From Nonlabens ponticola (GTDB lineage Bacteria > Bacteroidota > Bacteroidia > Flavobacteriales > Flavobacteriaceae): a DNA stretch of 32,000 nucleotides. The position numbers and the translations under genes were made by a program. The stretch is from the NCBI RefSeq assembly GCF_003966335.1, contig NZ_CP034549.1, positions 630,001 through 662,000 of the forward strand, written 5' to 3'. Every line of letters starts with the position of its first letter. The first letter of the stretch is position 1. Below, in pieces: positions 2,097-30,963 of the stretch. Under the pieces are notes generated by a model. That model did no database searches and was not told the DNA's origin. It was given only the letters and a program-made list of their open reading frames with translations.

Positions 2097-2116
2097 GCTT
2101 TCGCGAAAGCGTAATC
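2097..2116. repeat. palindromic repeat copy 1 (exact core GCTTTCGCGAAAGC + right arm GTAATC)
   Basis: tattct-GCTTTCGCGAAAGC-gtaatc. Intergenic, between atpH and atpA. Confidence 0.9.
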
Positions 2117-2126
2117 TCTTCAATCT

Positions 2127-2660
2127 TTACTGCGCGAACTCTCTTTTTAACTCTCCAAGAGTTGCCTGCACGCTAGCATTAATTTCTTTATCGCCTACTC
2201 TTAATATAAAGCCACCCAAGATGCTAGGATCGATCTTCTTCTCCAATGTAACTTCCTTACCAGCTAGAGTTCTTGCCTTTTCAAGCACTTTGGTTTCAAG
2301 TTGCGGTGTGATTTCTACTGCTGTAGTTACCGTTGCGATCTCTCGCTTGTTCATCTCTTCAAAGAGAATGTTATACTTCATGGCAACATCCTGTAAGATA
2401 TCAGCACGATTGTTATCTACAATAAGATCAAAAGCACCCATCGTGATACCGTTAGAATCCTTGAAGATTTGTCTTAGCGCACCACGCTTTTGATCACTCT
2501 TGATCAACGGACTTTGTAAGAATTGACGCAATTCTTTATTCTTGTGAACTGTTACCAGGACACTTTTCATGTCTTCATTGACTGCACTAGCCTCATTTTT
2601 CTCAACCGCTAGGTCAAGAATGGCTTTGGCATATCGTGAAGCAGCTCTGGATAGTTTCAT
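2127..2660 (-). CDS. atpH: F0F1 ATP synthase delta (OSCP) subunit
   Basis: 177 aa, sitting between atpF and atpA. OSCP-like sequence (RYAKAILDLA..., GGFILRVGDKEINASV). Confidence 0.85.
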   Translation of the reverse strand: MKLSRAASRYAKAILDLAVEKNEASAVNEDMKSVLVTVHKNKELRQFLQSPLIKSDQKRGALRQIFKDSNGITMGAFDLIVDNNRADILQDVAMKYNILFEEMNKREIATVTTAVEITPQLETKVLEKARTLAGKEVTLEKKIDPSILGGFILRVGDKEINASVQATLGELKREFAQ

Positions 2661-2663
2661 AGT

Positions 2664-3158
2664 CTAGATATTTGCGTCTGCAAGCATTTTATCGATCAAG
2701 GCTAGTTGAGCATCTTTTTCTGATAGCTCCTTGCGAGTAACTTTCTCTGCGATATCAACCGAAAGTTCAGCAACTTGTGACTTGATGTCTGCTAGTGCCG
2801 CTTTCTTTTCTGCCTGAATAGTTTCTTGAGCGCTTGCAATGATCTTATCTGCCTTAGCTTGCGCTTGATCAGCAGCTTCACCAATCATCTTTTCTTTTAT
2901 CTCACGCGCTTCTTTGAGCATAGCATCACGCTGTGCACGCGCTTCTTGAGCTGCTGCCTCGTTAGATGCTTCAAGTTTTGCCATTTCTAGCTTAGCGCGC
3001 TCTGCACTAGCCAGTGCGTTTGCGATACCATCTTCACGCTCATTTAGTGCGTTTAGGATAGGTTTCCATGCAAATTTTCCTAGCAACAAGATCAAGATGA
3101 TCAATATGATCGCTTGCATGAAGAATAAGCCTGGCGAAAAATCTTCTAGTAAATTCAT
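2664..3158 (-). CDS. atpF: F0F1 ATP synthase subunit b
   Basis: 164 aa with a single N-terminal TM helix followed by a long charged Ala/Glu/Lys-rich helix. Operon position fits. Confidence 0.85.
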   Translation of the reverse strand: MNLLEDFSPGLFFMQAIILIILILLLGKFAWKPILNALNEREDGIANALASAERAKLEMAKLEASNEAAAQEARAQRDAMLKEAREIKEKMIGEAADQAQAKADKIIASAQETIQAEKKAALADIKSQVAELSVDIAEKVTRKELSEKDAQLALIDKMLADANI

Positions 3159-3191
3159 GTGTTTACTTTAAAGTAATAATTTTTAATTTTT

Positions 3192-3239
3192 AAAAAACGC
3201 GTCCTGCAACCAACCGTTGCAGGAATTGCGTTTCTTTTT
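3192..3239 (-). terminator. intrinsic-terminator-like hairpin between atpE and atpF (probable attenuator or mRNA-stabilising stem)
   Basis: 9-bp stem TCCTGCAAC (3202..3210) / GTTGCAGGA (3216..3224) with a 5-nt loop. On the minus-strand transcript it is followed by a U6 run (A-run at 3192..3197). Confidence 0.5.
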
Positions 3240-3247
3240 GTTCTGGA

Positions 3248-3436
3248 TTACTTACCTAGGATAAGTGCACCAAATGCCAGTCCTTCAAGAAGTGCACCGA
3301 TGATGATCATCGCAGTTTGGATTTTTCCAGCTGCTTCAGGTTGACGAGCGATAGCTTCCATCGCTTTTCCACCTATTTGACCAAGACCGATACCACCACC
3401 GATAACGATAAGACCTGCTCCAATTAAATTATACAT
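3248..3436 (-). CDS. atpE: F0F1 ATP synthase subunit c
   Basis: 62-aa Gly-rich two-helix hairpin protein with the loop motif ARQPE and a conserved carboxylate in helix 2 (LLEGLAF). Confidence 0.9.
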   Translation of the reverse strand: MYNLIGAGLIVIGGGIGLGQIGGKAMEAIARQPEAAGKIQTAMIIIGALLEGLAFGALILGK

Positions 3437-3453
3437 AACAATCGATTTAAAAA

Positions 3454-4659: not shown

Positions 4660-4698
4660 GTAATTTACCTTAAAAAGTTAGGTCTTTTAATTCGGGTG

Positions 4699-4706
4699 CA
4701 AATGTA
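4699..4706 (-). promoter_or_regulatory. candidate Bacteroidota -7 box (TAcaTTTG) upstream of atpB
   Basis: The reverse complement of caaatgta matches TAnnTTTG, 40 nt upstream of the atpB ATG. I found no convincing -33 TTG. Confidence 0.4.
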
Positions 4707-4765: not shown

Positions 4766-4790
4766 GGATTACGCTTTCGCGAAAGCTAAC
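4766..4790. repeat. palindromic repeat copy 2 (GGATTAC + exact core)
   Basis: ggattac-GCTTTCGCGAAAGC-taac. Intergenic, upstream of atpB. Confidence 0.9.
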
Positions 4791-5597: not shown

Positions 5598-8207
5598 TTA
5601 AGGGGTTTGTTGCTGGTAGTCGTTTAGGCTCTTGTAAACCTGCACGATCTTATAATTATCGGTTGCAATAACGGTAAATTCTTGAGGTAGTGAAGATATG
5701 CGGTTAGGAGTTGCTAGATATTCTGCAAGCTCAGCAGCATTTTCTTTATCCTTAAAATTGTGAAGCACTACCAGACTTGTTTCTGCTGTATAGACATCAA
5801 TGGAAAAAGTGATGCCATTGCCTATGCTTTTAAATTCTTCTACCATCTTTACCGCAATGTCCTGACGCAAGTTGCTATCACCAGCTGGAATCTCAAAAAG
5901 AACCTTGAAATTTTCTAGCCTGTCCTCAGGTAAGAAAGTATCAGGAATACGTAAACGTTCTGCACTGGCAGATAGTTCCGCTGCTTTCTCTGCTTCTTCA
6001 GTTCCTGGGTAATTAAGGGCTATGAAATCTAGGCCTTCCTTATAAGCTTTTAAACCATACAATCTTCCAGAAGCGTACGTCTTGAGCAATTCTAGTTTTG
6101 GAACTATGGGATCGCCGCTGTAGCTTATAATTTTCTCATTGGCTTCTTCTATTACTTGTGCAAATTGCTCATTCTCATACTTTCTATACAAATCTGCATA
6201 CACACTTTCTGGACTACCAGTGCGATCCAGTTGTGTTTGTGGATTGAGCAGGATTTGTGCATATCGAGAATCAGGATATCTTGATATGATGGTGTTTTTG
6301 TATTGTTCCGCTTTCGCGAAAGCATAATCGCCACCAGCATTATCTACTCCTAACAGGTATAGGTTGTATAGAGTAGGTAAGTATAATTTTTGCTCTGGTT
6401 CAAAAGTAAGTAGCGTCTCAAATCGATCAATGGCTAGATCGCTGCGCTTGAATTTCTCCTTATATAAAACACCCAATTGATAGTAGGCAAAATCGCGAGC
6501 ATCTGCGATACTATCAAGCGCGACATCGCCTTGAGGCAACTGCTGCATATAATAGGATGCTAGATATTCTGGTGGTGTCTCGCTGCTGGATGCATCTGCA
6601 ATGTCGCTATCTTCATTCTCTTGCAATGCACTGCGCTGACTGTCCAGTCTCCAGTTTTCTTCCAGCGTGCGGTTGCCCCATCGACTACGGAATTCCAACT
6701 TACCTCTTGCCACGGTAGTAGGTACATAAAAATAGAACGAGCCTTGACCGCGTGATCCTATATCGTCAACAGTATTGGCTGGCGGCCCAAGATTGCGTCC
6801 ACCTGGCACATTTGCAGGAATGGTAGAAAGCGCCGTTTGCTGCTGCGCTAGGTTTGCTTCTTCAATCGCAGCCTGCTCTGCCAGCTGGCGATCACGTTCT
6901 TTAATGGTTTCAATATACTCATTATAGTAGGCTTCTCGCTCTATATCGCTCATGGCGAGAACTGCCAGTAGGCTATCAGCACTGCGGCGATTGGATTCGA
7001 ATAAAATGATATCTGATAGGTTATCGCGCTTTTTAGTCGTGGCACGTTTTTCTCGAGAGCGATCTGCATACAAGGCTACCGCGCTGTCATAATATCTGCC
7101 GGCTTGCTCAAATCTAGCCTGGTTAAAACTGATGGCGCCTAGCGCGCTATAATTATTTGCTCTTAAATAGCTATCGCGATTAGGCTCTCTCAATGATTGA
7201 TTATAGGCGACAACTGCGGCATCAACACTATCAATGCCTTCATAAAAAATGGCCTTGCGAGAATAGATTAAATCCAACCACGGTCTGTTCTCGCGATTTT
7301 GCTCTAGATCGTTGAGTAGATAGAATAATTGAGCGTCGCTCATTTCTAGCGTATCGCGCAACTTGATTTTTTCTATAAATGCCTGAACGTAATAATCACG
7401 TGGTATTTTACGGTGTAAATCGATCACCTCGTCAAAGTGTACAATAGCGCTATCTCGCATTCCAGCACGAGCAAAAAGTTGTCCTGTGATGAACTTGTAA
7501 CGACCTTCAGTAGCACGGTCTTTTGTTCTATCGGCAGCGCGGTTCATGTAGATGATGGCACTATCGATTTTATTGACGTTGAGATATGCTTGACCTAGCG
7601 TGGCGTTTGCTAGGATGAGATCTTCCTTATCAAACTCAATGCTGTCCTTGAGAGCGACGAGTTCTTGAAGATTCTCTATCGCTATCTCATTGTTGTCTAG
7701 GCGCATGTTGGTTTTTTCTCGCCAGATGCGAGCGCGTTTGCTCTTATCAGCGTCTGGCATGAATTGCAGCACATAGTTAAATGCCTCAATCGCCTCGACA
7801 TAACGCTGGTCATAATAGCGAGCCTTGCCCAACAACATGTAAGCCTCATCAATCTGCGGATTGCGCTCTTCACCATCAATAAGCATGGTGTGTTTTTGTA
7901 CGGCCTTTATGGCTTTTTCTTCTGCTCTTGCAAAATTTGGGTCGGATTCATCTGGATTGGCAATCTTGATTTCTTCACTGAAGGCAAGTGGTTCTACTGG
8001 AAGAATATCCCAGTAATTGTCGACGAAGTTGGTTCTTATGCCTTCCAGACCTTCTTGCAGGGCAAGATTACCGTTATAAAGTGTATTGAATTCTGTATTG
8101 ACAGCATGATAGTTACGAGAAAGGAAAGAATCGCTTTTACGGCTGCAACTCGCTAGGACGACTAGCGCGAGTAATAAAACGGTACTTATGGAAAAGAGGT
8201 GTTTCAA
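5598..8207 (-). CDS. large TPR-repeat lipoprotein; possibly a SprE/PorW-like gliding-motility/T9SS component (from memory, unverified)
   Basis: 869 aa with a lipoprotein signal (LLALVVLASC) and multiple TPR-like helices. Size and N-terminal FLSRNYHAVNTEFNTLYNG resemble what I recall of SprE. Contains palindrome copy 3, in frame. Confidence 0.8.
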   Translation of the reverse strand: MKHLFSISTVLLLALVVLASCSRKSDSFLSRNYHAVNTEFNTLYNGNLALQEGLEGIRTNFVDNYWDILPVEPLAFSEEIKIANPDESDPNFARAEEKAIKAVQKHTMLIDGEERNPQIDEAYMLLGKARYYDQRYVEAIEAFNYVLQFMPDADKSKRARIWREKTNMRLDNNEIAIENLQELVALKDSIEFDKEDLILANATLGQAYLNVNKIDSAIIYMNRAADRTKDRATEGRYKFITGQLFARAGMRDSAIVHFDEVIDLHRKIPRDYYVQAFIEKIKLRDTLEMSDAQLFYLLNDLEQNRENRPWLDLIYSRKAIFYEGIDSVDAAVVAYNQSLREPNRDSYLRANNYSALGAISFNQARFEQAGRYYDSAVALYADRSREKRATTKKRDNLSDIILFESNRRSADSLLAVLAMSDIEREAYYNEYIETIKERDRQLAEQAAIEEANLAQQQTALSTIPANVPGGRNLGPPANTVDDIGSRGQGSFYFYVPTTVARGKLEFRSRWGNRTLEENWRLDSQRSALQENEDSDIADASSSETPPEYLASYYMQQLPQGDVALDSIADARDFAYYQLGVLYKEKFKRSDLAIDRFETLLTFEPEQKLYLPTLYNLYLLGVDNAGGDYAFAKAEQYKNTIISRYPDSRYAQILLNPQTQLDRTGSPESVYADLYRKYENEQFAQVIEEANEKIISYSGDPIVPKLELLKTYASGRLYGLKAYKEGLDFIALNYPGTEEAEKAAELSASAERLRIPDTFLPEDRLENFKVLFEIPAGDSNLRQDIAVKMVEEFKSIGNGITFSIDVYTAETSLVVLHNFKDKENAAELAEYLATPNRISSLPQEFTVIATDNYKIVQVYKSLNDYQQQTP
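6306..6329. repeat. palindromic repeat copy 3 (exact core), inside the TPR lipoprotein CDS
   Basis: On the coding strand: gattat-GCTTTCGCGAAAGC-ggaac, which encodes DYAFAKAEQ. Confidence 0.9.
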
Positions 8208-9586: not shown

Positions 9587-9617
9587 GTCTTTAATATGTA
9601 GTGGTGATGGTATGGTT

Positions 9618-9642
9618 GTTACGCTTTCGCGAAAGCGGAATC
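9618..9642. repeat. palindromic repeat copy 4 (exact core)
   Basis: gttac-GCTTTCGCGAAAGC-ggaatc. Intergenic, between the permease-like gene and the ABC ATPase gene. Confidence 0.9.
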
Positions 9643-9660
9643 ATTAAAATCCAATTGCAA

Positions 9661-11130
9661 TTAATTAGTCTGCGAGTAAGCAGCAATAGTGTCGTATTTC
9701 TCGTTTTTATAAATGTTCTCGATAAGATCAAAAATCTTGTTGCGCAGTAGCAATCCTATGACACCAGTGGCCGCAACGGCAATGTAACCAGCATTATCGC
9801 TTATGGTAAAGGCAAAGGCTGCATAGACCGCAATGGGCACAAATAATTTGAGCATAGCAAGTAGGATGGTCTTGAAATTAAAAGCCTTAGAATCGCCAAA
9901 GGCTTTTTTGGCACTCTGCAAATCGATAGGCGTCTTTACAAACGCACCACCCAACAACACAAAACTACTGTTGAAGCCTATGTTGAAAATCGCAGCAGCA
10001 ATCATAGGCTTGAGCCACTCAATACCCACAAAACCGTAGGCCAGCGACAGGACGCTACAAATACAGGTGACTATCACCATCAAGTACCATTTGCTCAATA
10101 AAAAGGTGCGGTACGGTATATTTTGCGACATCATGAGCTTGTAGTAACTACTATCCCAACTAGGCACCAATCCACCAAAACTGAGCAAGAAACCGCCAGT
10201 CACAAATAGGCCAGCAAAAATTCTCATCGCCGGAATATCAGCATACATGGGCATCATGAAAAAGGCACCGTAAAACAAGAATAGGAATCCCATGATGAAG
10301 GTCATGCGCGCTCGCTTATTGCGTTTGATAAGGCGTATATCATTTTTAATAAAAGTGGACACACTACCAAAGCGGTCAAAAAACGTAAGATCATCAGTAC
10401 TTGCTGCCTTGACTTTTACCTCAAGACCAGCATCTAGATATAACTGTTTGATGAAATAATTGTAGGCAAGGTAGTAGAACAGCGCTGCCACCATTCCTGG
10501 AATAACAAACGACCACGGTTGCTCATAGAAGAATTCAAAAACGTGAACGGTGTATATGGTCACATCAAAAATCCCAAAATATTGCAACAATGCCAGCCCT
10601 ATAACCACAGCAACTACTGGATAGAAAACGCTATCCATTTTATTCATAAACACATTAAGGTAATTTAATGTGTAGGTTATACCAATGATCGCTAGATGCC
10701 AAGAGATAACGCCTATAGGGTCATAACCTTCAACCAACAGCACAATAGAATACGGTATAAAAAAGAACGCATGTAGAATATTGAAAAACGATATACTAGT
10801 TTTACCTAGCGCAAAATTCACGATCTGGCTGCGAGTGATAGGCAGGTACAACAGTGGTCTAATGTTGGCCACAGGCATTTTTTGCATACCATATCTTATG
10901 GCGAGATCAAACACAAAGTAATAAATCAAAAAACGGTTGAGTACGGTAAATGGATCTTGATCCGGCACTAATTTTTTAAGCCCGTAAAAAACACCAACAC
11001 CTAAACCAGTCATGACAAACAGCATGTAGACCGCACCTAGTCCCATAAATATCTTGAACGCGACATTTTGCTTAAAAGCCGCAGCTCTGGTAAAACTCTT
11101 CCACTCTAGACTGATGAACTGTTTGAACAT
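9661..11130 (-). CDS. polytopic membrane protein, probable permease partner of the adjacent ABC ATPase
   Basis: 489 aa with at least 10 hydrophobic segments. Co-directional with the ATPase gene and 74 nt upstream of it. Confidence 0.75.
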   Translation of the reverse strand: MFKQFISLEWKSFTRAAAFKQNVAFKIFMGLGAVYMLFVMTGLGVGVFYGLKKLVPDQDPFTVLNRFLIYYFVFDLAIRYGMQKMPVANIRPLLYLPITRSQIVNFALGKTSISFFNILHAFFFIPYSIVLLVEGYDPIGVISWHLAIIGITYTLNYLNVFMNKMDSVFYPVVAVVIGLALLQYFGIFDVTIYTVHVFEFFYEQPWSFVIPGMVAALFYYLAYNYFIKQLYLDAGLEVKVKAASTDDLTFFDRFGSVSTFIKNDIRLIKRNKRARMTFIMGFLFLFYGAFFMMPMYADIPAMRIFAGLFVTGGFLLSFGGLVPSWDSSYYKLMMSQNIPYRTFLLSKWYLMVIVTCICSVLSLAYGFVGIEWLKPMIAAAIFNIGFNSSFVLLGGAFVKTPIDLQSAKKAFGDSKAFNFKTILLAMLKLFVPIAVYAAFAFTISDNAGYIAVAATGVIGLLLRNKIFDLIENIYKNEKYDTIAAYSQTN

Positions 11131-11225: not shown

Positions 11226-12272
11226 ATGGTTTTCCACCAACTGTCCATAAAAGAAGTCACAAAAGTCACTTCACAAGCCGTTGAGATCGTCTTTGACGTG
11301 CCGCAGGATTTGAAAAGCGATTTTGAATATACCGCAGGCCAGTACTTGACCTTGAGAGCAGATATTGATGGCAATGACGTGAGACGTGCCTACTCATTGA
11401 GCAGCGCACCACATGAAGATCACTTGAGTGTTGTGGTAAAGGCTGTGCAGCATGGTACATTCTCAAACTATGCCATGAAACTGCGCGCTGGCGACACCCT
11501 TCAAGTCGCGCCACCAGATGGATTGTTTATTCACGAGAGCGATGCCAGTGCCGTCAATCACTATTTGAATGTTGCAGCAGGTAGCGGTATCACACCTATA
11601 ATGTCCATCATCAAGAGTATTCTTCATACTGAAAAAGACAGCCGAGTGGTATTAATTTATGGGAATCAGTCTCAATCGCAGACCATATATTTTGAGCAAT
11701 TGAACGATTTGCAAGACGCCCATCCAGATCGTTTCAAAGTGCGGTACAGTTTCTCTAGAGAAGAGCGTCAGGATGAGTTGTTCGGTCGTGTGAACAAGGC
11801 AAACCTCAATTATTTTTTGAAGAATGATTGTGAGGATTACGCTTTCGCGAAAGCTTACCTATGCGGTCCAGAAGCCATGATCAATATGGCAACAAACAAC
11901 CTTACCGAGAAAGAGGTCGTCGCCAAAGAAAACATCAAATTTGAACTCTTCACCGCTACAGAAAGTGAGGTAGAAATCACCGAAGATTCTCACTTGACGG
12001 AGGTAAAAGTCATCCTAGACGATGAAGAACACCAACTTACCATGCGTCGTGATGAGACCTTGCTTGAAGTGATGCTCAAAAACGATATCGATGCACCTTA
12101 TTCCTGCCAAGGAGGAATTTGTAGTAGCTGCGTAGGCTTGCTAGAGGAAGGAAAAGCCACCATGCGCAAAAATTCTATTCTCACTGACGAGGAAGTAGAT
12201 GAAGGCCTAACACTCACCTGCCAGGCTTGCCCAACTACCGCCAAGATTGTGGTTAATTTTGATGAGGTTTAA
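11226..12272 (+). CDS. ferredoxin-NAD(P) reductase fused to a plant-type 2Fe-2S ferredoxin domain (PaaE/PaaK-like oxidoreductase)
   Basis: FAD motif RAYSLSS, NAD(P) motif AAGSGITP, the CGP motif, and a C-terminal CQGGICSSC...C cluster. Contains palindrome copy 5, in frame. Confidence 0.9.
   Translation: MVFHQLSIKEVTKVTSQAVEIVFDVPQDLKSDFEYTAGQYLTLRADIDGNDVRRAYSLSSAPHEDHLSVVVKAVQHGTFSNYAMKLRAGDTLQVAPPDGLFIHESDASAVNHYLNVAAGSGITPIMSIIKSILHTEKDSRVVLIYGNQSQSQTIYFEQLNDLQDAHPDRFKVRYSFSREERQDELFGRVNKANLNYFLKNDCEDYAFAKAYLCGPEAMINMATNNLTEKEVVAKENIKFELFTATESEVEITEDSHLTEVKVILDDEEHQLTMRRDETLLEVMLKNDIDAPYSCQGGICSSCVGLLEEGKATMRKNSILTDEEVDEGLTLTCQACPTTAKIVVNFDEV
11834..11859. repeat. palindromic repeat copy 5 (GGATTAC + exact core), inside the ferredoxin reductase CDS
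   Basis: ggattac-GCTTTCGCGAAAGC-ttacc, which encodes (E)DYAFAKAYL immediately before the CGP motif. Confidence 0.9.
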
Positions 12273-13828: not shown

Positions 13829-14461
13829 GTGCGACCTATCATCGACCCTAATTTTGCAGTAGACACCTATTTCCCGATTGACTTATCTGTGCACAATCCC
13901 TATTGGGATCAGCATGATGTGAGTGATATCGAGACTTTTGAACATTATCTTGAAGAAAAGCGCAAGTATCACGACAAGTTTGTAGCGCATGGTGGCTTTA
14001 AGGAGCAAAGAGCATTATATCGCAAGTCTGCCAGATTTCAGGATGGTGCGGTGCGTGATATTCACATGGGTATTGATCTGTGGGCGCCAGCTGGCACCAG
14101 TGTGCATGCGCTCATGGATGGTATGATAAATTCTTTCGCAAATAATGACGATGCTGGGAACTATGGACCTACCTTGATTTTGGAACACGATTTTCAAGGA
14201 AAGAAGTTATACAGTCTTTACGGTCATCTTGCCGTTAGTGATATGCAGGACTGGTCTGTAGGATTACGCTTTCGCGAAAGCGAGATCATAGCACACCTAG
14301 GTACACCTCAAGAAAACGGTGGTTATTCACCGCACCTACACTTTCAAGTTATGACAGACATGCTGGATTATCGCGGCGATTTTCCAGGAGTTTTAGCTAA
14401 AGAGCAATTGGCTGAATTTGATAAAATCATTCTCGATCCCAATCCGTTTATATTTGGATGA
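13829..14461 (+). CDS. M23-family metallopeptidase (no obvious signal peptide)
   Basis: HxxxD-type GIDLWAPAGTSVHAL, YGHL, and SPHLHFQV motifs. GTG start. Contains palindrome copy 6, in frame. Confidence 0.85.
   Translation: MRPIIDPNFAVDTYFPIDLSVHNPYWDQHDVSDIETFEHYLEEKRKYHDKFVAHGGFKEQRALYRKSARFQDGAVRDIHMGIDLWAPAGTSVHALMDGMINSFANNDDAGNYGPTLILEHDFQGKKLYSLYGHLAVSDMQDWSVGLRFRESEIIAHLGTPQENGGYSPHLHFQVMTDMLDYRGDFPGVLAKEQLAEFDKIILDPNPFIFG
14261..14287. repeat. palindromic repeat copy 6 (GGATTAC + exact core), inside the M23 peptidase CDS
   Basis: ggattac-GCTTTCGCGAAAGC-gagatc, which encodes GLRFRESEI. Confidence 0.9.
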
Positions 14462-21237: not shown

Positions 21238-21251
21238 GCTTTCGCGGAAGC
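21238..21251. repeat. palindromic repeat copy 8 (13/14, GCTTTCGCGgAAGC)
   Basis: Intergenic, in the recA/trhO divergent region. One mismatch breaks the palindrome. Confidence 0.6.
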
Positions 21252-21488: not shown

Positions 21489-22523
21489 ATGCAACTGTAT
21501 AACAAATTAAGTGCTGAAGAGAGAAGACAATTGATACGTGAGGCTGGTAAGCAGCGGCTCACGATCTCTTTCTATCAGTATGCCTTTATTATTGATCCAC
21601 AATTATTTAGAAACTATCTGTTTGTAGACTTTAATGCTCTTGATGTCTTGGGACGTATTTATGTCGCTCATGAAGGTATCAACGCCCAATTTTCTATTCC
21701 GGCAGATCGTTTTAAGGAGCTCAAAAAATTTCTAGATGGCATCGACTTTCTAGAAAACGTGCGATTAAATATCGCTCGAGAACATGACGATGAGAGTTTC
21801 TTGAAGCTGAAAGTCAAGGTGCGCCATAAGATTGTTGCCGATGGACTTGAAGACGACTCCTTTGACGTGACTAATAAAGGCGTTCATGTAGATGCCGCTA
21901 GATTCAATGAGCTGATTGATGATCCTGATACGGTGCTGGTTGATATGCGCAATCATTATGAGAGCGAGATAGGTCATTTTCAAAATGCGTGGACGCCTGA
22001 TGTGGACACCTTTCGCGAAAGCTTACCCATCATCGAGGAAGAAATAAAAGACCACAAAAAGGATAAGAAACTGGTAATGTATTGTACCGGCGGCATACGT
22101 TGTGAGAAAGCAAGTGCCTATTACAAGCATCGCGGTTTTGAGGATGTTTACCAGCTAGAAGGTGGTATCATCGAGTATCACAGACAGGTAACTGAGCAAG
22201 GATTGGAGAATAAATTTAGAGGTAAAAATTTTGTTTTTGACGCGCGATTATCTGAAAAGATAAGCGATGAGATCATCTCTAACTGCCATCAATGTGGCGA
22301 GCCTTGTGACACGCACACAAATTGTGATAATGAGGGCTGTCATTTACTTTTCATACAATGTGAGAATTGCCGGAAAGCATTTAAAAATACCTGTAGCACT
22401 CATTGTTTAGAGGTAATACAGTTATCAGCTGAGGAGCAAAAGCAACTGCGAGCAGGTAAGCCTGCGAAAAATAAAAAGTTTAAAAAAGGGCGCTCGTCAA
22501 AACTGGAATTTAAAAAACAATAG
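21489..22523 (+). CDS. trhO: rhodanese-domain tRNA uridine(34) hydroxylase (YceA/UPF0176 family)
   Basis: ISFYQY...GRIYVAHEGINAQFSIP, rhodanese active site CTGGIRCEKAS, and a C-terminal Cys-rich HQCGEPCD..C. I prefer the ATG at 21489 over the track's TTG at 21459, which overlaps a TAnnTTTG box. Contains palindrome copy 9. Confidence 0.9.
   Translation: MQLYNKLSAEERRQLIREAGKQRLTISFYQYAFIIDPQLFRNYLFVDFNALDVLGRIYVAHEGINAQFSIPADRFKELKKFLDGIDFLENVRLNIAREHDDESFLKLKVKVRHKIVADGLEDDSFDVTNKGVHVDAARFNELIDDPDTVLVDMRNHYESEIGHFQNAWTPDVDTFRESLPIIEEEIKDHKKDKKLVMYCTGGIRCEKASAYYKHRGFEDVYQLEGGIIEYHRQVTEQGLENKFRGKNFVFDARLSEKISDEIISNCHQCGEPCDTHTNCDNEGCHLLFIQCENCRKAFKNTCSTHCLEVIQLSAEEQKQLRAGKPAKNKKFKKGRSSKLEFKKQ
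22009..22027. repeat. palindromic repeat copy 9 (13/14 core + TTACC), inside the trhO CDS
   Basis: cCTTTCGCGAAAGC-ttacc, which encodes TFRESLP. Its 18 nt CTTTCGCGAAAGCTTACC are identical to copy 5. Confidence 0.7.
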
Positions 22524-23830: not shown

Positions 23831-24496
23831 CTATTTAGCACCCAAAACAATTACAAACTCACCCTTTGGTTTTTTCTCTGTAAAATAGGCAATCGCTTCT
23901 GCGACGGTTCCTCTGTAGTGTTCCTCAAACATTTTGGTAATCTCACGTGAGATGGAGATTTGCCTGTCGGCACCGTAATGTGTTTGAAAATCGGTTAGAG
24001 TTTTCATTAGTTTATGCGGTGACTCATAGAAAACGATGGTGCGTGTTTCCTCGGCCAGTAGTTTTAATCGGGTTTGGCGGCCTTTTTTAACAGGTAAAAA
24101 TCCCTCAAAAACAAACTTGTCAGATGGTAGCCCGCTACTGGTAAGTGCTGGTACAAAGGCAGTGGCACCAGGCAATGATTCAATCTCCAGATTTGCGGCA
24201 ATCACCTTTCGCGCAAGCAAAAACCCAGGATCACTTATACCTGGCGATCCAGCATCTGTGATGAGCGCCATGGTCTCGCCTGCTGCAATTCTCTTGACGA
24301 TAGAGTCTGCAATCTTGTGCTCGTTGTGCATATGATAGGACAACATTGGCGTCTTAATTTGGTAATGGTTGAGCAATTTGCCGCTGGTGCGCGTGTCTTC
24401 TGCCAGTATGAGGTCTACCTGCTGCAAGATCTCGACCGCACGGTAGGTCATATCGCCTAGATTACCTATGGGCGTGGGCACGAGATATAGTTTCAT
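23831..24496 (-). CDS. rsmI: 16S rRNA (cytidine1402-2'-O)-methyltransferase
   Basis: 221 aa, LYLVPTPIGNLGDMTYRA, AEDTR, DAGSPGISDPG; tetrapyrrole-methylase-fold RsmI signature. Confidence 0.93.
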   Translation of the reverse strand: MKLYLVPTPIGNLGDMTYRAVEILQQVDLILAEDTRTSGKLLNHYQIKTPMLSYHMHNEHKIADSIVKRIAAGETMALITDAGSPGISDPGFLLARKVIAANLEIESLPGATAFVPALTSSGLPSDKFVFEGFLPVKKGRQTRLKLLAEETRTIVFYESPHKLMKTLTDFQTHYGADRQISISREITKMFEEHYRGTVAEAIAYFTEKKPKGEFVIVLGAK

Positions 24497-27036: not shown

Positions 27037-27061
27037 GGATTACGCTTTCGCGAAAGCGTAA
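27037..27061. repeat. palindromic repeat copy 10 (22-bp perfect palindrome TTACGCTTTCGCGAAAGCGTAA, preceded by GGA)
   Basis: Intergenic, between dut and the TPR gene. This is the most complete copy in the window. Confidence 0.95.
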
Positions 27062-28009: not shown

Positions 28010-28015
28010 TGGCCT

Positions 28016-28471
28016 GTGACATTTAATTTACAAATGCGACCTCAGGCGCTCATCGTTTTAGTGTTATGGACGCTATCTAGTTGCCGCCATAATAGACACG
28101 ATGTTGATATTTCAGGTTGCTATAAATCGGTAAAAGGCGATCCAGTTGCATGGTGGCAAAGCGAAGAGATCGATGGTATTGCCATAGGACCTCATTTGAA
28201 TCTTATGCCAGACAGCACCTTTATCTATGAGACTTGCGGTACTACTTTTCAAGGTCACTGGACACAGGACGATAAAAATCTATTTCTTTATCAAACAAGC
28301 TATCACATCAGGTGGAGAGATTCCAGCCTAACAGATCAGCAACATATCAAACTTATGAGTGATGAATTCTTTGAATTTGACATAGTAGACGGAAGATTGG
28401 TTGCCATTTTTAAAAACGAGCGCTCTAAGAAAAGATCTCGATTGACATTAGAAAAAATCACTGGCAGTTGA
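28016..28471 (+). CDS. hypothetical lipoprotein/secreted protein
   Basis: 151 aa, GTG start, hydrophobic N-terminus followed by SSC. Confidence 0.45.
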   Translation: MTFNLQMRPQALIVLVLWTLSSCRHNRHDVDISGCYKSVKGDPVAWWQSEEIDGIAIGPHLNLMPDSTFIYETCGTTFQGHWTQDDKNLFLYQTSYHIRWRDSSLTDQQHIKLMSDEFFEFDIVDGRLVAIFKNERSKKRSRLTLEKITGS

Positions 28472-28576
28472 TTTGTTCTTGTTTCTATTCTTAAATAGAA
28501 CAAGCATAAGCTTCCAAATTTTTACCTTCGCTCAATTACTAACAACAAACAGCTTTCCGCCAGAGCGGAAATTATT

Positions 28577-29593
28577 ATGAAAATAATCGTTCCCATGGCC
28601 GGTCGCGGCTCTAGACTTAGACCACACTCACTTACAACGCCCAAACCTCTTATTCCTATTGCAAACAAACCTATCGTGCATCGATTGGTGACTGACATTG
28701 CCAGAATATTGAACGAGCCTATCACAGAGATAGCTTTTATTCTGGGCGATCCAGCCTTTTTTGGCGATCAGGTGGTAAAAAGCCTTGAAGAGCTAGCCAA
28801 AGGTTTGGGCGCTAAAGCTAGCATCTATAGACAACTACAACCATTGGGTACAGGACATGCCATCATGTGTGCAGAACCATCACTTGACGGTCCAGCTGTG
28901 GTAGCTTATGCGGATACCTTGATAAGAGCAGACTTTGAGCTTGATCCAGCAGCAGACGCCGTTATCTGGACAAAACAAGTAGATCAACCTGAAGCTTATG
29001 GTGTGGTAAAACTTAACGATAAGCATGAGATCACAGAACTTGTTGAGAAACCTCAAGAATTTGTGAGCGATCAAGCAGTTATCGGGATTTATTACTTCAA
29101 ACAAATTTCAAATCTCAAAAAACAGTTACAACATGTGATTGACAATAACATCATACATGGTGGTGAGTACCAGATCAACGATGGTATTAAGGGCATGATG
29201 AAAGCTGGCAACATTTTCAAGACTGGAACCGTTGATGAATGGATGGATTGCGGTAACAAGAATGTTGCGATAGATACCAACACTCGCATCATGAAATTCA
29301 TGGAGCAGGATGGCAGCGATGAGCTGGATACCACCGCAACCCTAGAAAATTCTAAAATTATCCAGCCGTGCGTAATTGCTGATAATGTGATTTTAAGAAA
29401 TAGTACAATAGGTCCTCATGTGAGCATAGGCGCTGGCAGTGTGATAGAAAACTGTACGATCAAGGATAGCCTCATACAAACCAACAGTCATATAAAAAAC
29501 GCCCAACTAGACCAAGCCATGATAGGCAATCACGTCAAATACGATGGTGATTTCACACACATCAGTATAGGTGATTACACCACGATGGAATAA
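28577..29593 (+). CDS. sugar-phosphate nucleotidyltransferase with a C-terminal left-handed beta-helix domain
   Basis: N-terminal PMAGRGSRLRP...KPL signature of NTP-transferases, plus C-terminal hexapeptide-like repeats. Confidence 0.85.
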   Translation: MKIIVPMAGRGSRLRPHSLTTPKPLIPIANKPIVHRLVTDIARILNEPITEIAFILGDPAFFGDQVVKSLEELAKGLGAKASIYRQLQPLGTGHAIMCAEPSLDGPAVVAYADTLIRADFELDPAADAVIWTKQVDQPEAYGVVKLNDKHEITELVEKPQEFVSDQAVIGIYYFKQISNLKKQLQHVIDNNIIHGGEYQINDGIKGMMKAGNIFKTGTVDEWMDCGNKNVAIDTNTRIMKFMEQDGSDELDTTATLENSKIIQPCVIADNVILRNSTIGPHVSIGAGSVIENCTIKDSLIQTNSHIKNAQLDQAMIGNHVKYDGDFTHISIGDYTTME

Positions 29594-29613
29594 TAATTGA
29601 ACAGACCAACCAC

Positions 29614-30963
29614 ATGAAAATCCAGCTCGTATTTTTTGCCATGTTTTTCTGCCTGATGGTTTCGGCGCAGGAAGATGTGACGCTGGAAGATGTAAATGTG
29701 GACGATCTGGGTATCGTCAATGATGCCTTTAAGGAAAACTTCTTTGATGCTTTATCAGAAAAGGCACGCGGCAACCATGATCGAGCCATTGAGAAATTGC
29801 TGAAATGCGAGAAATTAGAGCCTGAATCTGGCGCGGTGCAATTAGAACTTGCAAAGAATTATATGGCTAGTAACGCTTTCGCGAAAGCGGAATCACACCT
29901 ACTTAAAACCATACAATTATCAGGAGAACGAGAGTGGATCCTCGATACCTTACTCGAGAATTATGAAAGCCAGAAGCAATATGATAAGGCACTCAGTACA
30001 TTAAAAAAGCTGATTGACATCAACGACTCTTATAGAGAATTACTGCCTATCGCATATTTAAAAGTGGAAGATGAGTCTAGCGCATTGCAAGCACTCGATG
30101 CGCTAGATCGCGATTTAGGCCCTAGCGATAAGCGCAACAGATTGAGGAGAACATTACAAAAAACTACCGCGACCACAGGTTCACAACCTGTAATAGATCT
30201 TGAAGAGCGACTTAGCTCTAATCCAAAAAATTCAGACCTATATGCGCAATTAATGTACGCTTACAGCCAGACCCAGGACGAGGAAAAAATGTTGAGCGTT
30301 GCAGCGAGATGGCGTCAAAATATTCCTAGTGATGACCAGCCGTATCTAGCACTTTATAAAATCTACCTCAATCGTGGTGATATAGAAAAAGGGTTATCAA
30401 GTCTGGTAAGAGTGCTCAAGTCCTCACAATTAGATGATCAAGTTAAATCGCAAGTAATTACCGATTATTTGAATGCTATTGAATCGCGCCCAGAACTGGC
30501 CTCTCAAGTGGATGAGATCATGAAGATTTATGAAAGTCAGATTGAAGACACACAAGCTTTTATTGCATTAGGCAATTTTTATAAAGAAAAGAATCAATTG
30601 AATCGTGCCGTACGTTTTTACCAAATGGCATTAGATCAAGATGATCAGGATTTTGATTTGATTAAAATAACATCGCTGTTGTACCTGGACCTGGGAAAAT
30701 TTGATGATGCGGCGACCATCAGCGAACAAGCGTTGGAAATCTATCCAGCACAATCATTGTTGTACTTAATCAATGGTGCTGCTCTAAATCAGCTGCAAGA
30801 ATATAAGAAGGCAATAACAGTGCTGGAAACTGGGTTATCATTTTTACTGGATGAGCCGCAACTGGAAAAAGATATTTATGAGCAGCTGTTGCTGTCCTAT
30901 GAAAAACTAGGCGACAATAAAAAAGCTGCATCATTGCGTGAAACACTGCGCGACTTGAATTAG
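29614..30963 (+). CDS. secreted TPR-repeat protein
   Basis: 449 aa with a signal peptide and many TPR-like helices. Contains palindrome copy 11, in frame. Confidence 0.75.
   Translation: MKIQLVFFAMFFCLMVSAQEDVTLEDVNVDDLGIVNDAFKENFFDALSEKARGNHDRAIEKLLKCEKLEPESGAVQLELAKNYMASNAFAKAESHLLKTIQLSGEREWILDTLLENYESQKQYDKALSTLKKLIDINDSYRELLPIAYLKVEDESSALQALDALDRDLGPSDKRNRLRRTLQKTTATTGSQPVIDLEERLSSNPKNSDLYAQLMYAYSQTQDEEKMLSVAARWRQNIPSDDQPYLALYKIYLNRGDIEKGLSSLVRVLKSSQLDDQVKSQVITDYLNAIESRPELASQVDEIMKIYESQIEDTQAFIALGNFYKEKNQLNRAVRFYQMALDQDDQDFDLIKITSLLYLDLGKFDDAATISEQALEIYPAQSLLYLINGAALNQLQEYKKAITVLETGLSFLLDEPQLEKDIYEQLLLSYEKLGDNKKAASLRETLRDLN
29870..29894. repeat. palindromic repeat copy 11 (exact core), inside the TPR protein CDS
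   Basis: gtaac-GCTTTCGCGAAAGC-ggaatc, which encodes SNAFAKAES. 23 nt are identical to intergenic copy 4. Confidence 0.9.

What the first reader, a model, noticed from the sequence alone, without database searches (positions are those of the whole stretch)
2097..29888. Hyper-abundant 14-bp perfect palindrome GCTTTCGCGAAAGC (about 28-bp consensus GGATTACGCTTTCGCGAAAGCGTAATCC): 11 copies in 32 kb, in both intergenic DNA and ORFs
The exact 14-mer occurs 9 times (core starts 2097, 4773, 6310, 9623, 11841, 14268, 17305, 27044, 29875), and there are two 13/14 copies (21238, 22009). Chance expectation for one specified 14-mer in 32 kb is about 1e-4 (32000/4^14). Flanking bases extend most copies towards an imperfect ~28-bp palindrome, and 27040..27061 is a perfect 22-bp palindrome. 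Five copies are intergenic, mostly in short gaps between co-directional genes: atpH|atpA, upstream of atpB, permease|ABC ATPase, dut|TPR gene, and upstream of recA. The other six lie inside unrelated ORFs. A purely intergenic distribution would look like REP/BIME elements. The mixed coding/non-coding distribution, orientation independence and density of about 1 per 2.8 kb instead resemble DNA uptake signal sequences (Pasteurellaceae USS, Neisseria DUS), Rickettsia palindromic elements, or a genome-wide binding word for a dimeric DNA-binding protein. One window cannot discriminate between these. The centre, TCGCGA, is an NruI site.
Basis: partly seen in the sequence, partly recalled or inferred. 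Interest (0 to 1): 0.8.

Follow-up and report, generated by a model that had tools for sequence, protein, structure and literature searches.

The report
Genus-wide hyper-abundant 16-bp DNA palindrome
A marine flavobacterial lineage (Nonlabens and close relatives) keeps one exact 14-16-bp palindrome every 3-4 kb along its chromosome, inside genes as well as between them. It resembles the DNA-uptake words of Neisseria and Haemophilus and the HIP1 palindrome of cyanobacteria, and I found no description of it in the papers searched.

Summary
GCTTTCGCGAAAGC occurs 9 times exactly in 32 kb, plus two 1-mismatch copies and one 2-mismatch copy; 1e-5 to 7e-4 are expected.

It is not a mobile or structural repeat:
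- Copies inside ORFs cause no length change relative to outgroup proteins. Existing codons were recoded to AFAKA or RFRES.
- Flanks show no copy-specific complementarity.
- No copy coincides with a terminator-like site or an Rfam family.

It is a DNA-level word shared by a whole clade:
- All Nonlabens-clade loci longer than about 6 kb carry it (113 copies in 509 kb). Psychroflexus and five other genera have none in 814 kb.
- Copies sit at the same orthologous positions across species, and their synonymous sites are frozen (0.88 versus 0.43).
- Exact copies outnumber 1-mismatch copies about 9:1.
- Spacing is far more even than random.
- A Nonlabens phage has no copy; a prophage-like contig has three.

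Two features are new here:
- On each strand the 5' flank is G/T-rich and C-poor for 15-35 nt.
- The 14-mer is two overlapped copies of the nuclease-resistant DNA mini-hairpin octamer GCGAAAGC, one per strand.

Best reading, which is inferred: an orientation-free self-DNA signal for uptake or recombination, analogous to USS/DUS, HIP1 and Chi. A chromosome-wide binding site for a dimeric protein remains a serious rival. I rate it a new variant of a known kind.

The parts
2097..2110 (.). Exact 14-mer, intergenic between atpH (2127-2660, -) and atpA (462-2036, -)
   Evidence: The orthologous intergenic copy is present in 10 related species.
4773..4786 (.). Exact 14-mer, intergenic between the DUF6168 gene (4795-5160, -) and atpB (3454-4659, -)
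   Evidence: The orthologous copy is seen in L135 and L189.
6310..6323 (.). Exact 14-mer inside the 869-aa TPR protein ORF (5598-8207, -), read as AFAKA
   Evidence: Length-neutral versus outgroup proteins, and present at the same codons in 14 species, 13 of them exact.
9623..9636 (.). Exact 14-mer (full 16-mer), intergenic between DUF5687 (9661-11130, -) and the ABC ATPase (8846-9586, -)
   Evidence: The most widely conserved site: 19 species, 17 exact.
11841..11854 (.). Exact 14-mer inside the FNR-like Fe-S oxidoreductase ORF (11226-12272, +), read as AFAKA just before the conserved YLCGP
   Evidence: Exact in 6 other species. Elsewhere it has decayed by 1-3 synonymous changes with the peptide kept.
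14268..14281 (.). Exact 14-mer (full 16-mer) inside the M23 peptidase ORF (13829-14461, +), read as RFRES; lies 177 bp upstream of the dprA start
   Evidence: Exact in 13 of 14 orthologues while neighbouring synonymous sites vary. L135 has VKEGQ at this position instead.
17305..17318 (.). Exact 14-mer inside the acyltransferase ORF (16584-17360, +), read as SFRES
   Evidence: Exact in 5 of 7 orthologues.
21238..21251 (.). 1-mismatch copy (GCTTTCGCGGAAGC), intergenic, 90 bp upstream of recA (20135-21148, -) and 63 nt from a Flavo-1 RNA match
22009..22022 (.). 1-mismatch copy (CCTTTCGCGAAAGC) inside the rhodanese/UPF0176 ORF (21459-22523, +), read as TFRES
24205..24218 (.). 2-mismatch relic (CCTTTCGCGCAAGC) inside the TP_methylase ORF (23831-24496, -), third frame (LLARK)
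   Evidence: Weakest member; could be chance.
27040..27061 (.). Exact 14-mer (27044-27057) within a perfect 22-bp palindrome, intergenic between dut (26572-27006, +) and a TPR gene (27086-28009, +)
29875..29888 (.). Exact 14-mer (full 16-mer) inside the 449-aa TPR protein ORF (29614-30963, +), read as AFAKA
9588..9671 (.). Example of the full unit, about 85 bp: G/T-rich, C-poor 5' arm on each strand (about 35 nt either side) around the 9623 copy. The same holds for every copy.
   Evidence: C is 6-9% at -6..-15 against a 19% background, with the same skew on both sides. In the window alone, P < 5e-5.

Best explanation
SHOWN
- CGCTTTCGCGAAAGCG is a clade-wide DNA-level signal. The core 14-mer is invariant and position +-8 is nearly so.
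- The Nonlabens lineage has kept it at fixed, evenly spaced chromosomal positions, about one per 3-4 kb. It does so by selection or biased transmission acting on the DNA itself, even at the cost of changing protein sequence.
- It is not a transposed element and not a conserved RNA or DNA long hairpin.

INFERRED
- It is an orientation-free 'self' signal for recombination or DNA uptake. It would play the combined role that USS/DUS (uptake tag) and Chi (protect the 3' end and load RecA) play elsewhere, and that recent work proposes for HIP1.

PROPOSED MECHANISM
- Step 1: a dimeric protein reads the duplex 16-mer. The site is operator-like: two 8-bp half-sites with exact sequence.
- Step 2, alternative or additional: once the DNA is unwound or resected, each strand carries the octamer GCGAAAGC in the 3' half of the word. 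This octamer forms an extraordinarily stable, nuclease-resistant, SSB-excluding mini-hairpin.
- Step 3: a 3'->5' nuclease would stall there. That leaves a 3' tail whose last 15-35 nt are G/T-rich, the kind of DNA I recall RecA preferring (own knowledge).
- Step 4: because the word is a palindrome, this works from either direction and on either strand.
- Step 5: a need for one site per imported or resected fragment would explain the even spacing and why a lost site is compensated by its neighbour.
For: Abundance and taxonomic range
- 9 exact copies against 1e-5 to 7e-4 expected.
- All Nonlabens-clade loci longer than about 6 kb hold 3-7 copies each, across GC contents of 34-44%. The few copy-free clade loci are contigs of 1.7-5.5 kb. 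The total is 113 copies in 509 kb.
- There are none in 814 kb of syntenic loci from Psychroflexus, Mesohalobacter, Sediminicola, Cerina, Neptunitalea and Pustulibacterium.
- 21 further copies occur in 152 kb of unrelated Nonlabens-like metagenome contigs.

DNA-level maintenance
- ORF copies are length-neutral and sit at orthologous codons in up to 14 species.
- Codon identity at same-residue positions is 0.88 inside the motif against 0.43 in the background, p = 2e-9.
- In the M23 peptidase, most species read RFRES where L135 reads VKEGQ.

Sharpness
- 113 exact copies against about 13 with one mismatch. Counts drop abruptly beyond 14-16 bp.

Spacing
- CV 0.45 against 0.87 for uniform placement (0 of 5000 simulations reach it).
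- 2 intervals below 1 kb against 19 expected. For the window alone, p = 0.003.
- The three species lacking the DUF5687|ABC site all have the exact FNR site 2.2 kb away. Only 3 of the 19 species that keep the DUF5687|ABC site have it. My own Fisher test on data gives p about 0.01, without phylogenetic correction.

Flanks
- On both strands the 5' flank is C-poor and G/T-rich out to about -35.

Mini-hairpin
- The 14-mer equals GCTTTCGC and GCGAAAGC overlapped by GC.
- The properties of d(GCGAAAGC) are taken from PMC13037366.

Self versus foreign DNA
- Nonlabens phage P12024S (35.7 kb) has no copy at <=2 mismatches. Host density would give about 8.
- A prophage-like contig has 3 copies at 3.1-3.6 kb spacing.

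Context from the literature
- dprA and recA lie in the window next to copies.
- Natural transformation with a preference for own DNA is documented in the Flavobacteriales, with no USS identified (PMC7965970).
- HIP1, the closest analogue, boosts transformation in a Chi-like or uptake-like way (10.1101/2024.09.10.611283).
Against: - No function was tested. Natural competence of Nonlabens is not documented in anything I found.
- No reader protein was identified.
- Known USS/DUS and Chi sites are short (5-12 nt), asymmetric and more degenerate. A 14-16-bp exact palindrome is more typical of a dimeric operator or a parS-like site.
- If mini-hairpin stability were all that mattered, loop variants such as GCGCAAGC or GCGAGAGC (Tm about 71-72 C) should substitute freely. 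Lone octamers or the alternative arrangement GCGAAAGCTTTCGC should also occur. None of these is enriched, so sequence-specific recognition is required in any case.
- dprA and recA are universal genes, and their proximity here may be chance.
- The spacing and conservation statistics pool orthologous sites from related species, so they overstate independence.
- Only about 0.7 Mb of clade DNA was seen, and no whole genome.
Confidence: 0.4

Rival explanations
1. The word is a chromosome-wide loading or binding site for a dimeric nucleoid, partition or occlusion protein. It would act like parS/ParB or NBS/Noc but at about 1000 sites. The protein binds each 16-bp palindrome and spreads or bridges, organising or marking the whole chromosome.
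For: - The site has operator-like architecture: two exact 8-bp half-sites. Its information content far exceeds what is needed to find about 1000 sites, and there are few degenerate copies.
- Sequence, not pairing, is conserved.
- Even spacing and compensation by neighbouring sites fit a coverage function.
- The word is conserved without change across a deep clade, as I recall parS is (own knowledge).
- Xu et al. argued for a nucleoid-structure role for HIP1 (PMC5861425).
Against: - To my knowledge no such protein or precedent exists at this site density. As I recall, parS and NBS number 1-70 per genome and are regionally biased.
- It does not explain the strand-symmetric G/T-rich 5' flanks.
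- It does not explain the coincidence of the word's boundaries with two mini-hairpin octamers.
- The sequence is unrelated to parS or NBS, which I compared by eye from remembered consensus sequences.
Confidence: 0.22
2. The word is a methylation-linked highly iterated palindrome in the sense of Elhai. It embeds the target (CGCG or TCGCGA) of a conserved, possibly orphan, methyltransferase. The methylated word serves epigenetic or repair functions, or is created by methylation-directed biased repair.
For: - The centre of the word holds CGCG and TCGCGA.
- The Nonlabens phage strongly avoids CGCG (9 versus 43 expected) and has no TCGCGA. This suggests a CGCG-directed system in at least one host.
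- Several 1-mismatch variants are CpG transitions.
- HIP words in cyanobacteria co-occur with cognate methyltransferases (PMC4390886).
- HIP1's transformation effect depends on methylation.
Against: - A 4-6-bp methylase target cannot by itself specify or regenerate 14-16 exact positions.
- CGCG and TCGCGA outside the word are at ordinary frequency in the clade: TCGCGA obs/exp 0.91 versus 0.88 in the outgroup.
- Positional orthology and frozen synonymous sites point to site-by-site retention rather than continual creation.
- No methyltransferase gene or methylome was examined.
Confidence: 0.12
3. The word acts in single-stranded DNA during replication. The mini-hairpin on the lagging-strand template would be an ssi-like priming, restart or SSB-exclusion signal, placed every few kb and readable on either strand.
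For: - GCGAAAGC sits at the phage G4 primase start site and excludes SSB (PMC13037366).
- Palindromy puts the octamer on whichever strand is the lagging-strand template.
- Spacing is even at the kilobase scale.
Against: - Replisomal priming by DnaB-DnaG needs no such signal in any studied bacterium (own knowledge).
- Lone octamers are not enriched.
- Loop variants that still fold are not used.
- Absence from the related genera shows the word is dispensable for replication.
Confidence: 0.07
4. The word acts at the RNA level. Because it is a palindrome, either transcript carries the same GCUUUCGCGAAAGC hairpin, which could be an RNase or RNA-binding-protein site tuning mRNA segment stability inside operons.
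For: - Intergenic copies lie almost only between co-directional genes: 39 tandem, 2 convergent, 0 divergent. An example is the copy inside the atp operon.
- Enrichment in intergenic DNA is about 4-fold per base.
Against: - Predicted hairpins are weak (-3 to -15 kcal/mol, z about 0 for most copies).
- There is no compensatory variation at all, since the sequence is invariant.
- 62% of copies are inside ORFs, where ribosomes would melt the hairpin.
- No copy has a terminator-like tail.
- No Rfam match.
Confidence: 0.06
5. The word is a mobile or copy-paste repeat (MITE, REP/RAYT-type or RPE-type) that has spread by transposition.
For: - In some relatives the palindrome is split by small hairpin-bearing inserts, and one composite insert carries its own copy of the word. 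Some DNA-breaking or DNA-joining activity therefore acts at the word.
Against: - ORF copies add no length relative to outgroup proteins.
- The alignments around the copies show no target-site duplications, terminal repeats or shared flanks, and flanks are not specifically complementary within a copy.
- Copies are orthologous across species rather than polymorphic.
- Copies are evenly spaced singletons, not clusters.
- 62% are genic.
Confidence: 0.04

Closest known systems
HIP1 (Highly Iterated Palindrome 1, GCGATCGC) and alternate HIPs of cyanobacteria
   Same: - It is a perfect palindrome that is hyper-abundant across a whole lineage.
- It lies in coding and non-coding DNA.
- It is conserved at orthologous positions within and between ORFs, implying selection on the DNA.
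- Its spacing is non-random.
- It has no RNA, peptide or regulatory role.
- Its function is long unknown and now suspected to lie in transformation or recombination.
(PMC5861425, PMC4390886, 10.1101/2024.09.10.611283, 10.64898/2026.06.24.733823.)
   Different: - It is in a different phylum and has a different sequence.
- It is 14-16 bp rather than 8 bp.
- As I recall, HIP1 is several-fold denser than the one copy per 3-4 kb seen here.
- It has far fewer degenerate copies.
- It has G/T-rich 5' flanks and contains the GCGAAAGC mini-hairpin. I did not check HIP1 for either feature.
- A link to a cognate methyltransferase is untested here.
DNA uptake sequences: USS of Pasteurellaceae and DUS of Neisseriaceae
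   Same: - It is a lineage-specific word at about kilobase density, in both coding and intergenic DNA with intergenic enrichment.
- It uses preferred reading frames or peptides.
- It is evenly spaced.
- It is shared at orthologous sites between related species.
- It is missing from a lytic-type phage.
- Its information content exceeds what site-finding needs.
(Own knowledge of the USS/DUS literature; PMC7965970 for the concept in Flavobacteriales.)
   Different: - USS and DUS are asymmetric 9-12-mers that occur in two orientations, and DUS often forms inverted pairs at terminators. This word is itself a palindrome and is not a terminator.
- USS and DUS show lineage 'dialects'. Here the 14-mer is invariant across the clade and only position +-8 relaxes.
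- Competence and an uptake receptor are unknown for Nonlabens.
Chi (crossover hotspot instigator) sites of RecBCD/AddAB
   Same: - Density is about one per few kb.
- It is chromosomal 'self' DNA that phages lack.
- It lies in G/T-rich surroundings on the strand that becomes the 3' tail.
- The proposed action is to stop 3'->5' degradation and favour RecA loading.
   Different: - Chi is 5-8 nt, asymmetric, co-oriented with replication and only a few-fold over-represented.
- Chi is read as ssDNA inside the enzyme.
- A 14-16-bp palindrome or hairpin acting as a passive or protein-assisted stop would be a different mechanism.
parS / Noc-binding sites (16- and 14-bp palindromes bound by ParB-family dimers)
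   Same: - It is an exact 14-16-bp palindrome.
- It is highly specific, with few degenerate copies.
- It is conserved unchanged across species.
   Different: - The sequence is unrelated.
- parS and NBS number 1-70 per genome and are regionally restricted (own knowledge). Extrapolating the observed density to a few-Mb genome suggests on the order of 1000 evenly spread copies here.
REP/BIME elements, Rickettsia palindromic elements and MITEs
   Same: - It is a short palindromic repeat scattered through a genome.
- RPEs can sit in-frame inside ORFs.
   Different: - REPs are extragenic, imperfect, clustered and conserved for structure.
- RPEs and MITEs add length and have polymorphic insertion sites.
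- None of these properties holds here.

Membership tests
USS/DUS-type DNA uptake sequence | Lineage-specific short word, hundreds- to thousands-fold over-represented, at about kb density | tested here: met
   113 copies in 509 kb of clade DNA and 0 in 814 kb of the outgroup. Over-representation in the window is >1e4-fold.
USS/DUS-type DNA uptake sequence | Present in coding and non-coding DNA, enriched intergenically, more evenly spaced than random | tested here: met
   70 ORF copies and 43 intergenic copies at 87% coding density. Spacing CV 0.45 versus 0.87.
USS/DUS-type DNA uptake sequence | Motif-bearing DNA is preferentially taken up by competent cells through a specific receptor | not testable with these tools
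   Needs uptake or transformation competition assays. Only dprA and recA were seen in the window, and both are universal.
USS/DUS-type DNA uptake sequence | Asymmetric word found in both orientations | tested here: not met
   The word is a perfect palindrome.
HIP (highly iterated palindrome, cyanobacterial type) | Hyper-abundant perfect palindrome conserved at orthologous sites within and between ORFs | tested here: met
HIP (highly iterated palindrome, cyanobacterial type) | Sequence GCGATCGC (or a described alternate HIP) in cyanobacteria | tested here: not met
   The word and the phylum both differ; relatives are Nonlabens, Flavobacteriaceae.
HIP (highly iterated palindrome, cyanobacterial type) | Cognate, often orphan, methyltransferase recognising a nested site | not tested
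   The only hint is indirect: CGCG is avoided in Nonlabens phage P12024S, 9 versus 43 expected.
REP/BIME (RAYT-associated) | Extragenic location | tested here: not met
   62% of copies lie inside ORFs. 7 of the 12 copies in the window do.
REP/BIME (RAYT-associated) | Imperfect hairpin conserved in structure, clustered in arrays | tested here: not met
   The sequence is invariant with no covariation. Copies are evenly spaced singletons.
Rickettsia palindromic elements / MITEs | Insertion adds length (in-frame extra peptide, or TIR plus target-site duplication) | tested here: not met
   Codon alignments with the outgroup show no added length at the four ORF sites examined.
Chi site | Short asymmetric word co-oriented with replication | tested here: not met
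   It is a palindrome, so no orientation exists.
Chi site | Attenuates RecBCD/AddAB degradation and stimulates RecA loading | not testable with these tools
   The only support is circumstantial: G/T-rich 5' flanks and the literature properties of the mini-hairpin.
Intrinsic terminator | G+C-rich stem-loop followed by a T run | tested here: not met
   No terminator-like site coincides with a copy in 1-20000. The second half of the window was not scanned. Hairpins are weak and lack a U tail.
Described RNA family (Rfam 15) | Match at gathering score | tested here: not met
   In the window, only Flavo-1 at 21314-21399 matches, and it is not at a copy. The composite elements give no credible match.
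parS / Noc-binding site | Consensus TGTTNCACGTGAAACA or ATTTCCCGGGAAAT; few copies, regionally confined | tested here: not met
   By eye, against consensus sequences recalled from memory, the word matches NBS at 6 of 14 positions. Density is about 1 per 3-4 kb.

The most novel reading that the evidence does not exclude
This would be the first uptake- or recombination-type 'self-DNA' word outside Proteobacteria and Cyanobacteria, working by a new principle. A palindrome places the nuclease-resistant GCGAAAGC mini-hairpin on both strands, each preceded by a RecA-friendly G/T-rich tract. It would act as a structural, bidirectional Chi/USS hybrid that marks Nonlabens chromosomes every 3-4 kb.
Probability: 0.2. 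Interest if true: 0.9.

Novelty: new variant of a known kind. Interest (0 to 1): 0.72.

Why it matters
- Hyper-abundant genomic words (USS, DUS, HIP1, Chi) are few, and each has opened a line of work on how bacteria tell their own DNA from foreign DNA. HIP1's function is still debated after 30 years.
- This would be an independent, much longer and much sharper example in the Bacteroidota. Natural transformation with own-DNA preference exists there, but no uptake signal has been identified.
- Several features make the function unusually testable: positional conservation, even spacing, G/T-rich arms and mini-hairpin content.
- Practically, adding the 16-mer to constructs might improve genetic manipulation of marine flavobacteria.
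- The word is also a clean taxonomic marker for Nonlabens-clade contigs in metagenomes.

Tried and rejected
- **Source genome:** no exact protein is on record. The best relatives reach 66% identity.
- **Literature:** searches for the 14-mer and the 12-mer returned nothing. A 'Nonlabens + palindrom' search and a five-term search (Flavobacteri, overrepresented, palindrom, genome-wide, motif) returned nothing relevant.
- **Viral-contig scan for the bare 14-mer:** Most hits are single chance copies in unrelated GC-rich phages.
- **BLAST of a 36-nt consensus against phages and plasmids:** only chance matches.
- **Long-hairpin or cruciform idea:** rejected. There is no copy-specific flank complementarity and RNA folds are weak.
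- **Terminator idea:** rejected.
- **RPE/MITE insertion idea:** rejected.
- **Restriction avoidance of NruI sites in the host:** not seen.
- **An alternative hyper-abundant palindrome in the outgroup genera:** none. The one candidate, CCAGAAGCTTCTGG, is a single orthologous coding site.
- **A discrete second motif in the flanks:** none. There is only a G/T-rich composition.
- **RNAalifold on the composite split-palindrome elements:** ambiguous structure with little covariation.

Full report
**1. Observation**

The 14-mer GCTTTCGCGAAAGC is present exactly nine times, at the stated coordinates. Two one-mismatch copies (21238, 22009) are also as stated, and there is one more two-mismatch relic at 24205.

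Dinucleotide shuffles give 0.13 matches at <=2 mismatches. Markov chains of order 1-5, trained with the motif masked, predict 1.6e-5 to 7e-4 exact copies in 32 kb.

- Five copies lie in short gaps: atpH|atpA, upstream of atpB, DUF5687|ABC ATPase, dut|TPR, and upstream of recA.
- Seven lie inside ORFs: two TPR proteins, an FNR-type oxidoreductase, an M23 peptidase, an acyltransferase, a rhodanese-family protein and a TP_methylase.

**2. Size of the unit**

I pooled the window with related loci (112 copies). The 14-mer is invariant by construction. Position -1 is C in 99 copies and position +1 is G in 93. Beyond that there is only a weak TTA/TAA preference.

Nested word counts show sharp edges:

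| Word length | 8 | 10 | 12 | 14 | 16 | 18 | 22 |
|---|---|---|---|---|---|---|---|
| Copies | 119 | 118 | 115 | 113 | 85 | 19 | 3 |

Only about 13 copies have a single mismatch inside the 14-mer, against 113 exact ones.

Flanks of the same copy are no more complementary than flanks taken from different copies (4.87 versus 4.86 pairs in 12 positions).

**3. Taxonomic range**

A protein-guided scan of one genome per species returned 72 syntenic loci. The best hits are Nonlabens species and some 'uncultured Flavobacteriaceae' MAGs at 58-66% identity. The source species itself is not in the collections.

- All Nonlabens-clade loci longer than about 6 kb carry 3-7 exact copies, across GC contents of 34-44%.
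- The few copy-free clade loci are contigs of 1.7-5.5 kb.
- Loci from Psychroflexus, Mesohalobacter, Sediminicola, Cerina, Neptunitalea and Pustulibacterium carry none, even at one mismatch.
- Those outgroup loci contain no alternative hyper-abundant palindrome.
- Nonlabens-like metagenome contigs from other genomic regions hold 21 independent copies in 152 kb. The word is therefore genome-wide, not a property of this locus.

**4. Not an inserted element**

Codon alignments of four ORFs with their orthologues and outgroup homologues show that the word occupies pre-existing codons with no change in length. The peptide becomes AFAKA in frame 0 or (R/S/T)FRES in frame 1. The third frame is rare: 33, 29 and 8 copies respectively.

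In the M23 peptidase, most species read RFRES where one relative (L135) reads VKEGQ. To my knowledge VKEGQ is closer to the usual M23 pattern. If so, the protein was changed to hold the word.

**5. Conserved as DNA**

Copies sit at the same orthologous places in many species:

| Site | Species with the copy |
|---|---|
| DUF5687\|ABC gap | 19 |
| TPR protein, residue ~630 | 14 |
| M23 peptidase, residue ~150 | 13 |
| FNR, residue ~210 | 10 |
| atpA\|atpH gap | 10 |
| Acyltransferase, residue ~240 | 7 |

Where the residue is unchanged, the codon is identical to the window's in 88% of cases inside the word. Elsewhere in the same genes the figure is 43% (p = 2e-9).

At the FNR site some lineages keep the AFAKA peptide but have lost the word through synonymous changes. 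This shows that the protein does not require the DNA word.

**6. Even spacing and compensation**

- The 88 intervals have CV 0.45, against 0.87 for uniform placement. None of 5000 simulations reached this.
- Only 2 intervals are shorter than 1 kb, where 19 are expected.
- The window alone gives p = 0.003.
- The three species that lack the DUF5687|ABC copy all have the exact FNR copy 2.2 kb away. Only 3 of the 19 species that keep the DUF5687|ABC copy have it.

These tests pool related species, so the pooled p-values are optimistic. The window-only test is independent of that problem.

**7. Structure**

RNA folds of seven copies are weak and mostly indistinguishable from shuffles. No terminator-like site coincides with a copy in the first 20 kb. 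No Rfam family matches at a copy. Because the sequence never varies, there is no covariation. What is conserved is sequence identity, not pairing.

**8. New feature: asymmetric flanks**

On each strand, the 15-35 nt 5' of the word are C-poor and G/T-rich. At -6 to -15, C is 6-7% against a 19% background, G is 29% and T is 38-43%. The skew is the same on both sides and fades by about -35.

In the window alone, C is 8.6% and G+T is 72%. No random placement out of 20,000 matched this.

Enriched flank words are TGTGG, GGTTG, GATGG and TGTTG, without a fixed position. The full unit is therefore about 50-85 bp: G/T-rich arm, 16-bp palindrome, A/C-rich arm.

**9. New feature: mini-hairpin content**

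The 14-mer is exactly GCTTTCGC and GCGAAAGC overlapped by their shared GC. Each strand therefore carries d(GCGAAAGC) in the 3' half of the word.

This octamer is the classical 'mini-hairpin'. Its Tm is about 76 C, it resists nucleases, it excludes SSB, and it sits at the phage G4 priming site (PMC13037366).

Against a purely structural role:
- The alternative overlap GCGAAAGCTTTCGC never occurs.
- Lone octamers are not enriched: 9 observed against 7.4 expected.
- Loop variants that still fold are not used in place of the word.

Structure alone cannot be the whole story.

**10. Self versus foreign DNA**

Nonlabens phage P12024S (35.7 kb) has no copy at <=2 mismatches and no TCGCGA. It also avoids CGCG strongly: 9 observed against 43 expected.

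A prophage-like contig from an isolate genome encodes a head maturation protease and an endolysin. It has three copies spaced 3.1-3.6 kb apart.

In host DNA, TCGCGA outside the word is at the ordinary frequency (0.91 of expectation against 0.88 in the outgroup). There is thus no sign of an NruI-type restriction pressure.

**11. Interpretation**

*Shown.* The word is a DNA-level signal with long-term site-by-site retention, a spacing constraint, clade specificity and strand-symmetric flanks.

*Rejected.* It is not a MITE, REP or RPE, not a terminator and not a structured RNA.

*Closest analogues.* These are HIP1 of cyanobacteria and the USS/DUS uptake words. HIP1 is conserved within and between ORFs, non-randomly spaced and linked to methylases. 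It is now reported to enhance natural transformation in a Chi-like or uptake-like manner.

*Preferred reading.* I favour an orientation-free uptake or recombination 'self' signal.
- The palindrome makes it readable from either side.
- The mini-hairpin could stop 3'->5' degradation.
- The G/T-rich tract just 5' of it is the kind of DNA I recall RecA preferring (own knowledge).
- One site per imported or resected fragment would explain both the spacing and the compensation.

This is inference, and I give it 0.4. In the Flavobacteriales, natural transformation with own-DNA preference is documented for Riemerella columbina, with no USS identified (PMC7965970). Nothing is known for Nonlabens.

*Main rival (0.22).* A dimeric DNA-binding protein that uses the word as a chromosome-wide loading site.

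*Other rivals.* A methylation-linked role, a replication-linked ssDNA role and an RNA role are less likely but not excluded.

**12. Novelty**

No paper in the searchable library holds the word or describes an iterated palindrome in Nonlabens or Flavobacteriia. I classify it as a new variant of a known kind: the class of hyper-abundant genomic words. It differs in length, exactness, flank architecture and mini-hairpin content.

Noticed in passing
L120:11512-11590, L125:6447-6565, L197:5020-5096, L195:3314-3388(-), L209:2127-2199, L226:668-746(-), L232:5413-5491(-), L218:2593-2671; shorter forms at L134:16246-16296(-), L198:4175-4225(-), L222:8597-8659: In some relatives and in Nonlabens-like metagenome contigs the palindrome is split. 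Its layout is CGCTTTC - variable hairpin (often tipped by a second full copy of the word) - AAGTTTATGC - short hairpin (for example CGCACTCGATGCG) - GTAC - GAAAGCG. The element is about 50-120 nt and recurs at unrelated sites. GTACGAAAGC is absent from the outgroup. It has no Rfam match. It may be a tiny mobile element or a structured RNA or DNA that uses the word's halves as its outer stem. None occurs in the window.
   Followed up: partly
L139:9240-9301(-) in the FNR ORF; L189:~3640-3720 in the TPR ORF: The same kind of insert sits in-frame inside two protein-coding genes, exactly at the orthologous palindrome sites. It adds about 15-16 residues (for example NSLSAVEVYAEQGRST). The word therefore appears to be a preferred insertion or break point.
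   Followed up: partly
L131:11516-11557; L132 and L134 at the FNR site (about 9280 in locus coordinates): A different 27-28-bp hairpin (CCTGCCTG...CAGGCAGG) is inserted inside the palindrome. In L131 this is at the DUF5687|ABC intergenic site. In L132 and L134 it is in-frame in the FNR gene.
   Followed up: no
window 21314-21399 (-): A Flavo-1 RNA (RF01705, 51.8 bits) lies upstream of recA, 63 nt from the 1-mismatch palindrome at 21238. In L209 another Flavo-1 match (2351-2445) lies about 150 nt from a composite palindrome element.
   Followed up: no
L191 (Nonlabens phage P12024S, whole genome): CGCG is strongly avoided (9 observed, 43 expected) and TCGCGA is absent. This suggests a CGCG-directed restriction-modification system in the host, which would also modify the centre of the palindrome. 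The phage encodes its own DNA methyltransferase, and ERF and YqaJ recombination proteins.
   Followed up: partly
Nonlabens-clade loci L119-L141, L143, L156, L168, L189, L190 and the window: TTCG/CGAA-containing words are scarce outside the palindrome. TTCGAA is at 0.029 per kb against 0.198 per kb in the outgroup genera, and TTCGA at 0.20 against 0.63 per kb, even though CG overall is more frequent. Possible causes are avoidance of near-cognate half-sites or a TTCGAA restriction system.
   Followed up: partly
window 17319-27043: This is the only long stretch (9.7 kb) without an exact copy. It holds just the three degenerate copies (21238, 22009, 24205). It contains recA, an ECF sigma factor and an outer-membrane beta-barrel gene.
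   Followed up: no
L131, L140 and the window versus the other clade loci: The C/G at position +-8 (the 16-mer) is kept in about 90-100% of half-sites in Nonlabens proper. It is kept in only 6/14 (L131), 9/14 (L140) and 13/18 (window). This is a mild lineage 'dialect' at the edge of the word.
   Followed up: partly
window 8330-8563 (-) and 8613-8846 (-): Two tandem paralogous 77-aa predicted membrane proteins lie between the TPR gene and the ABC ATPase.
   Followed up: no
L053 (IMGVR_UViG_2617271332_000001), 4210, 7851, 10955: A prophage-like region (head maturation protease, endolysin, depolymerase-like protein) carries three copies of the word at host-like, regular spacing. One of them lies inside the protease gene.
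   Followed up: partly
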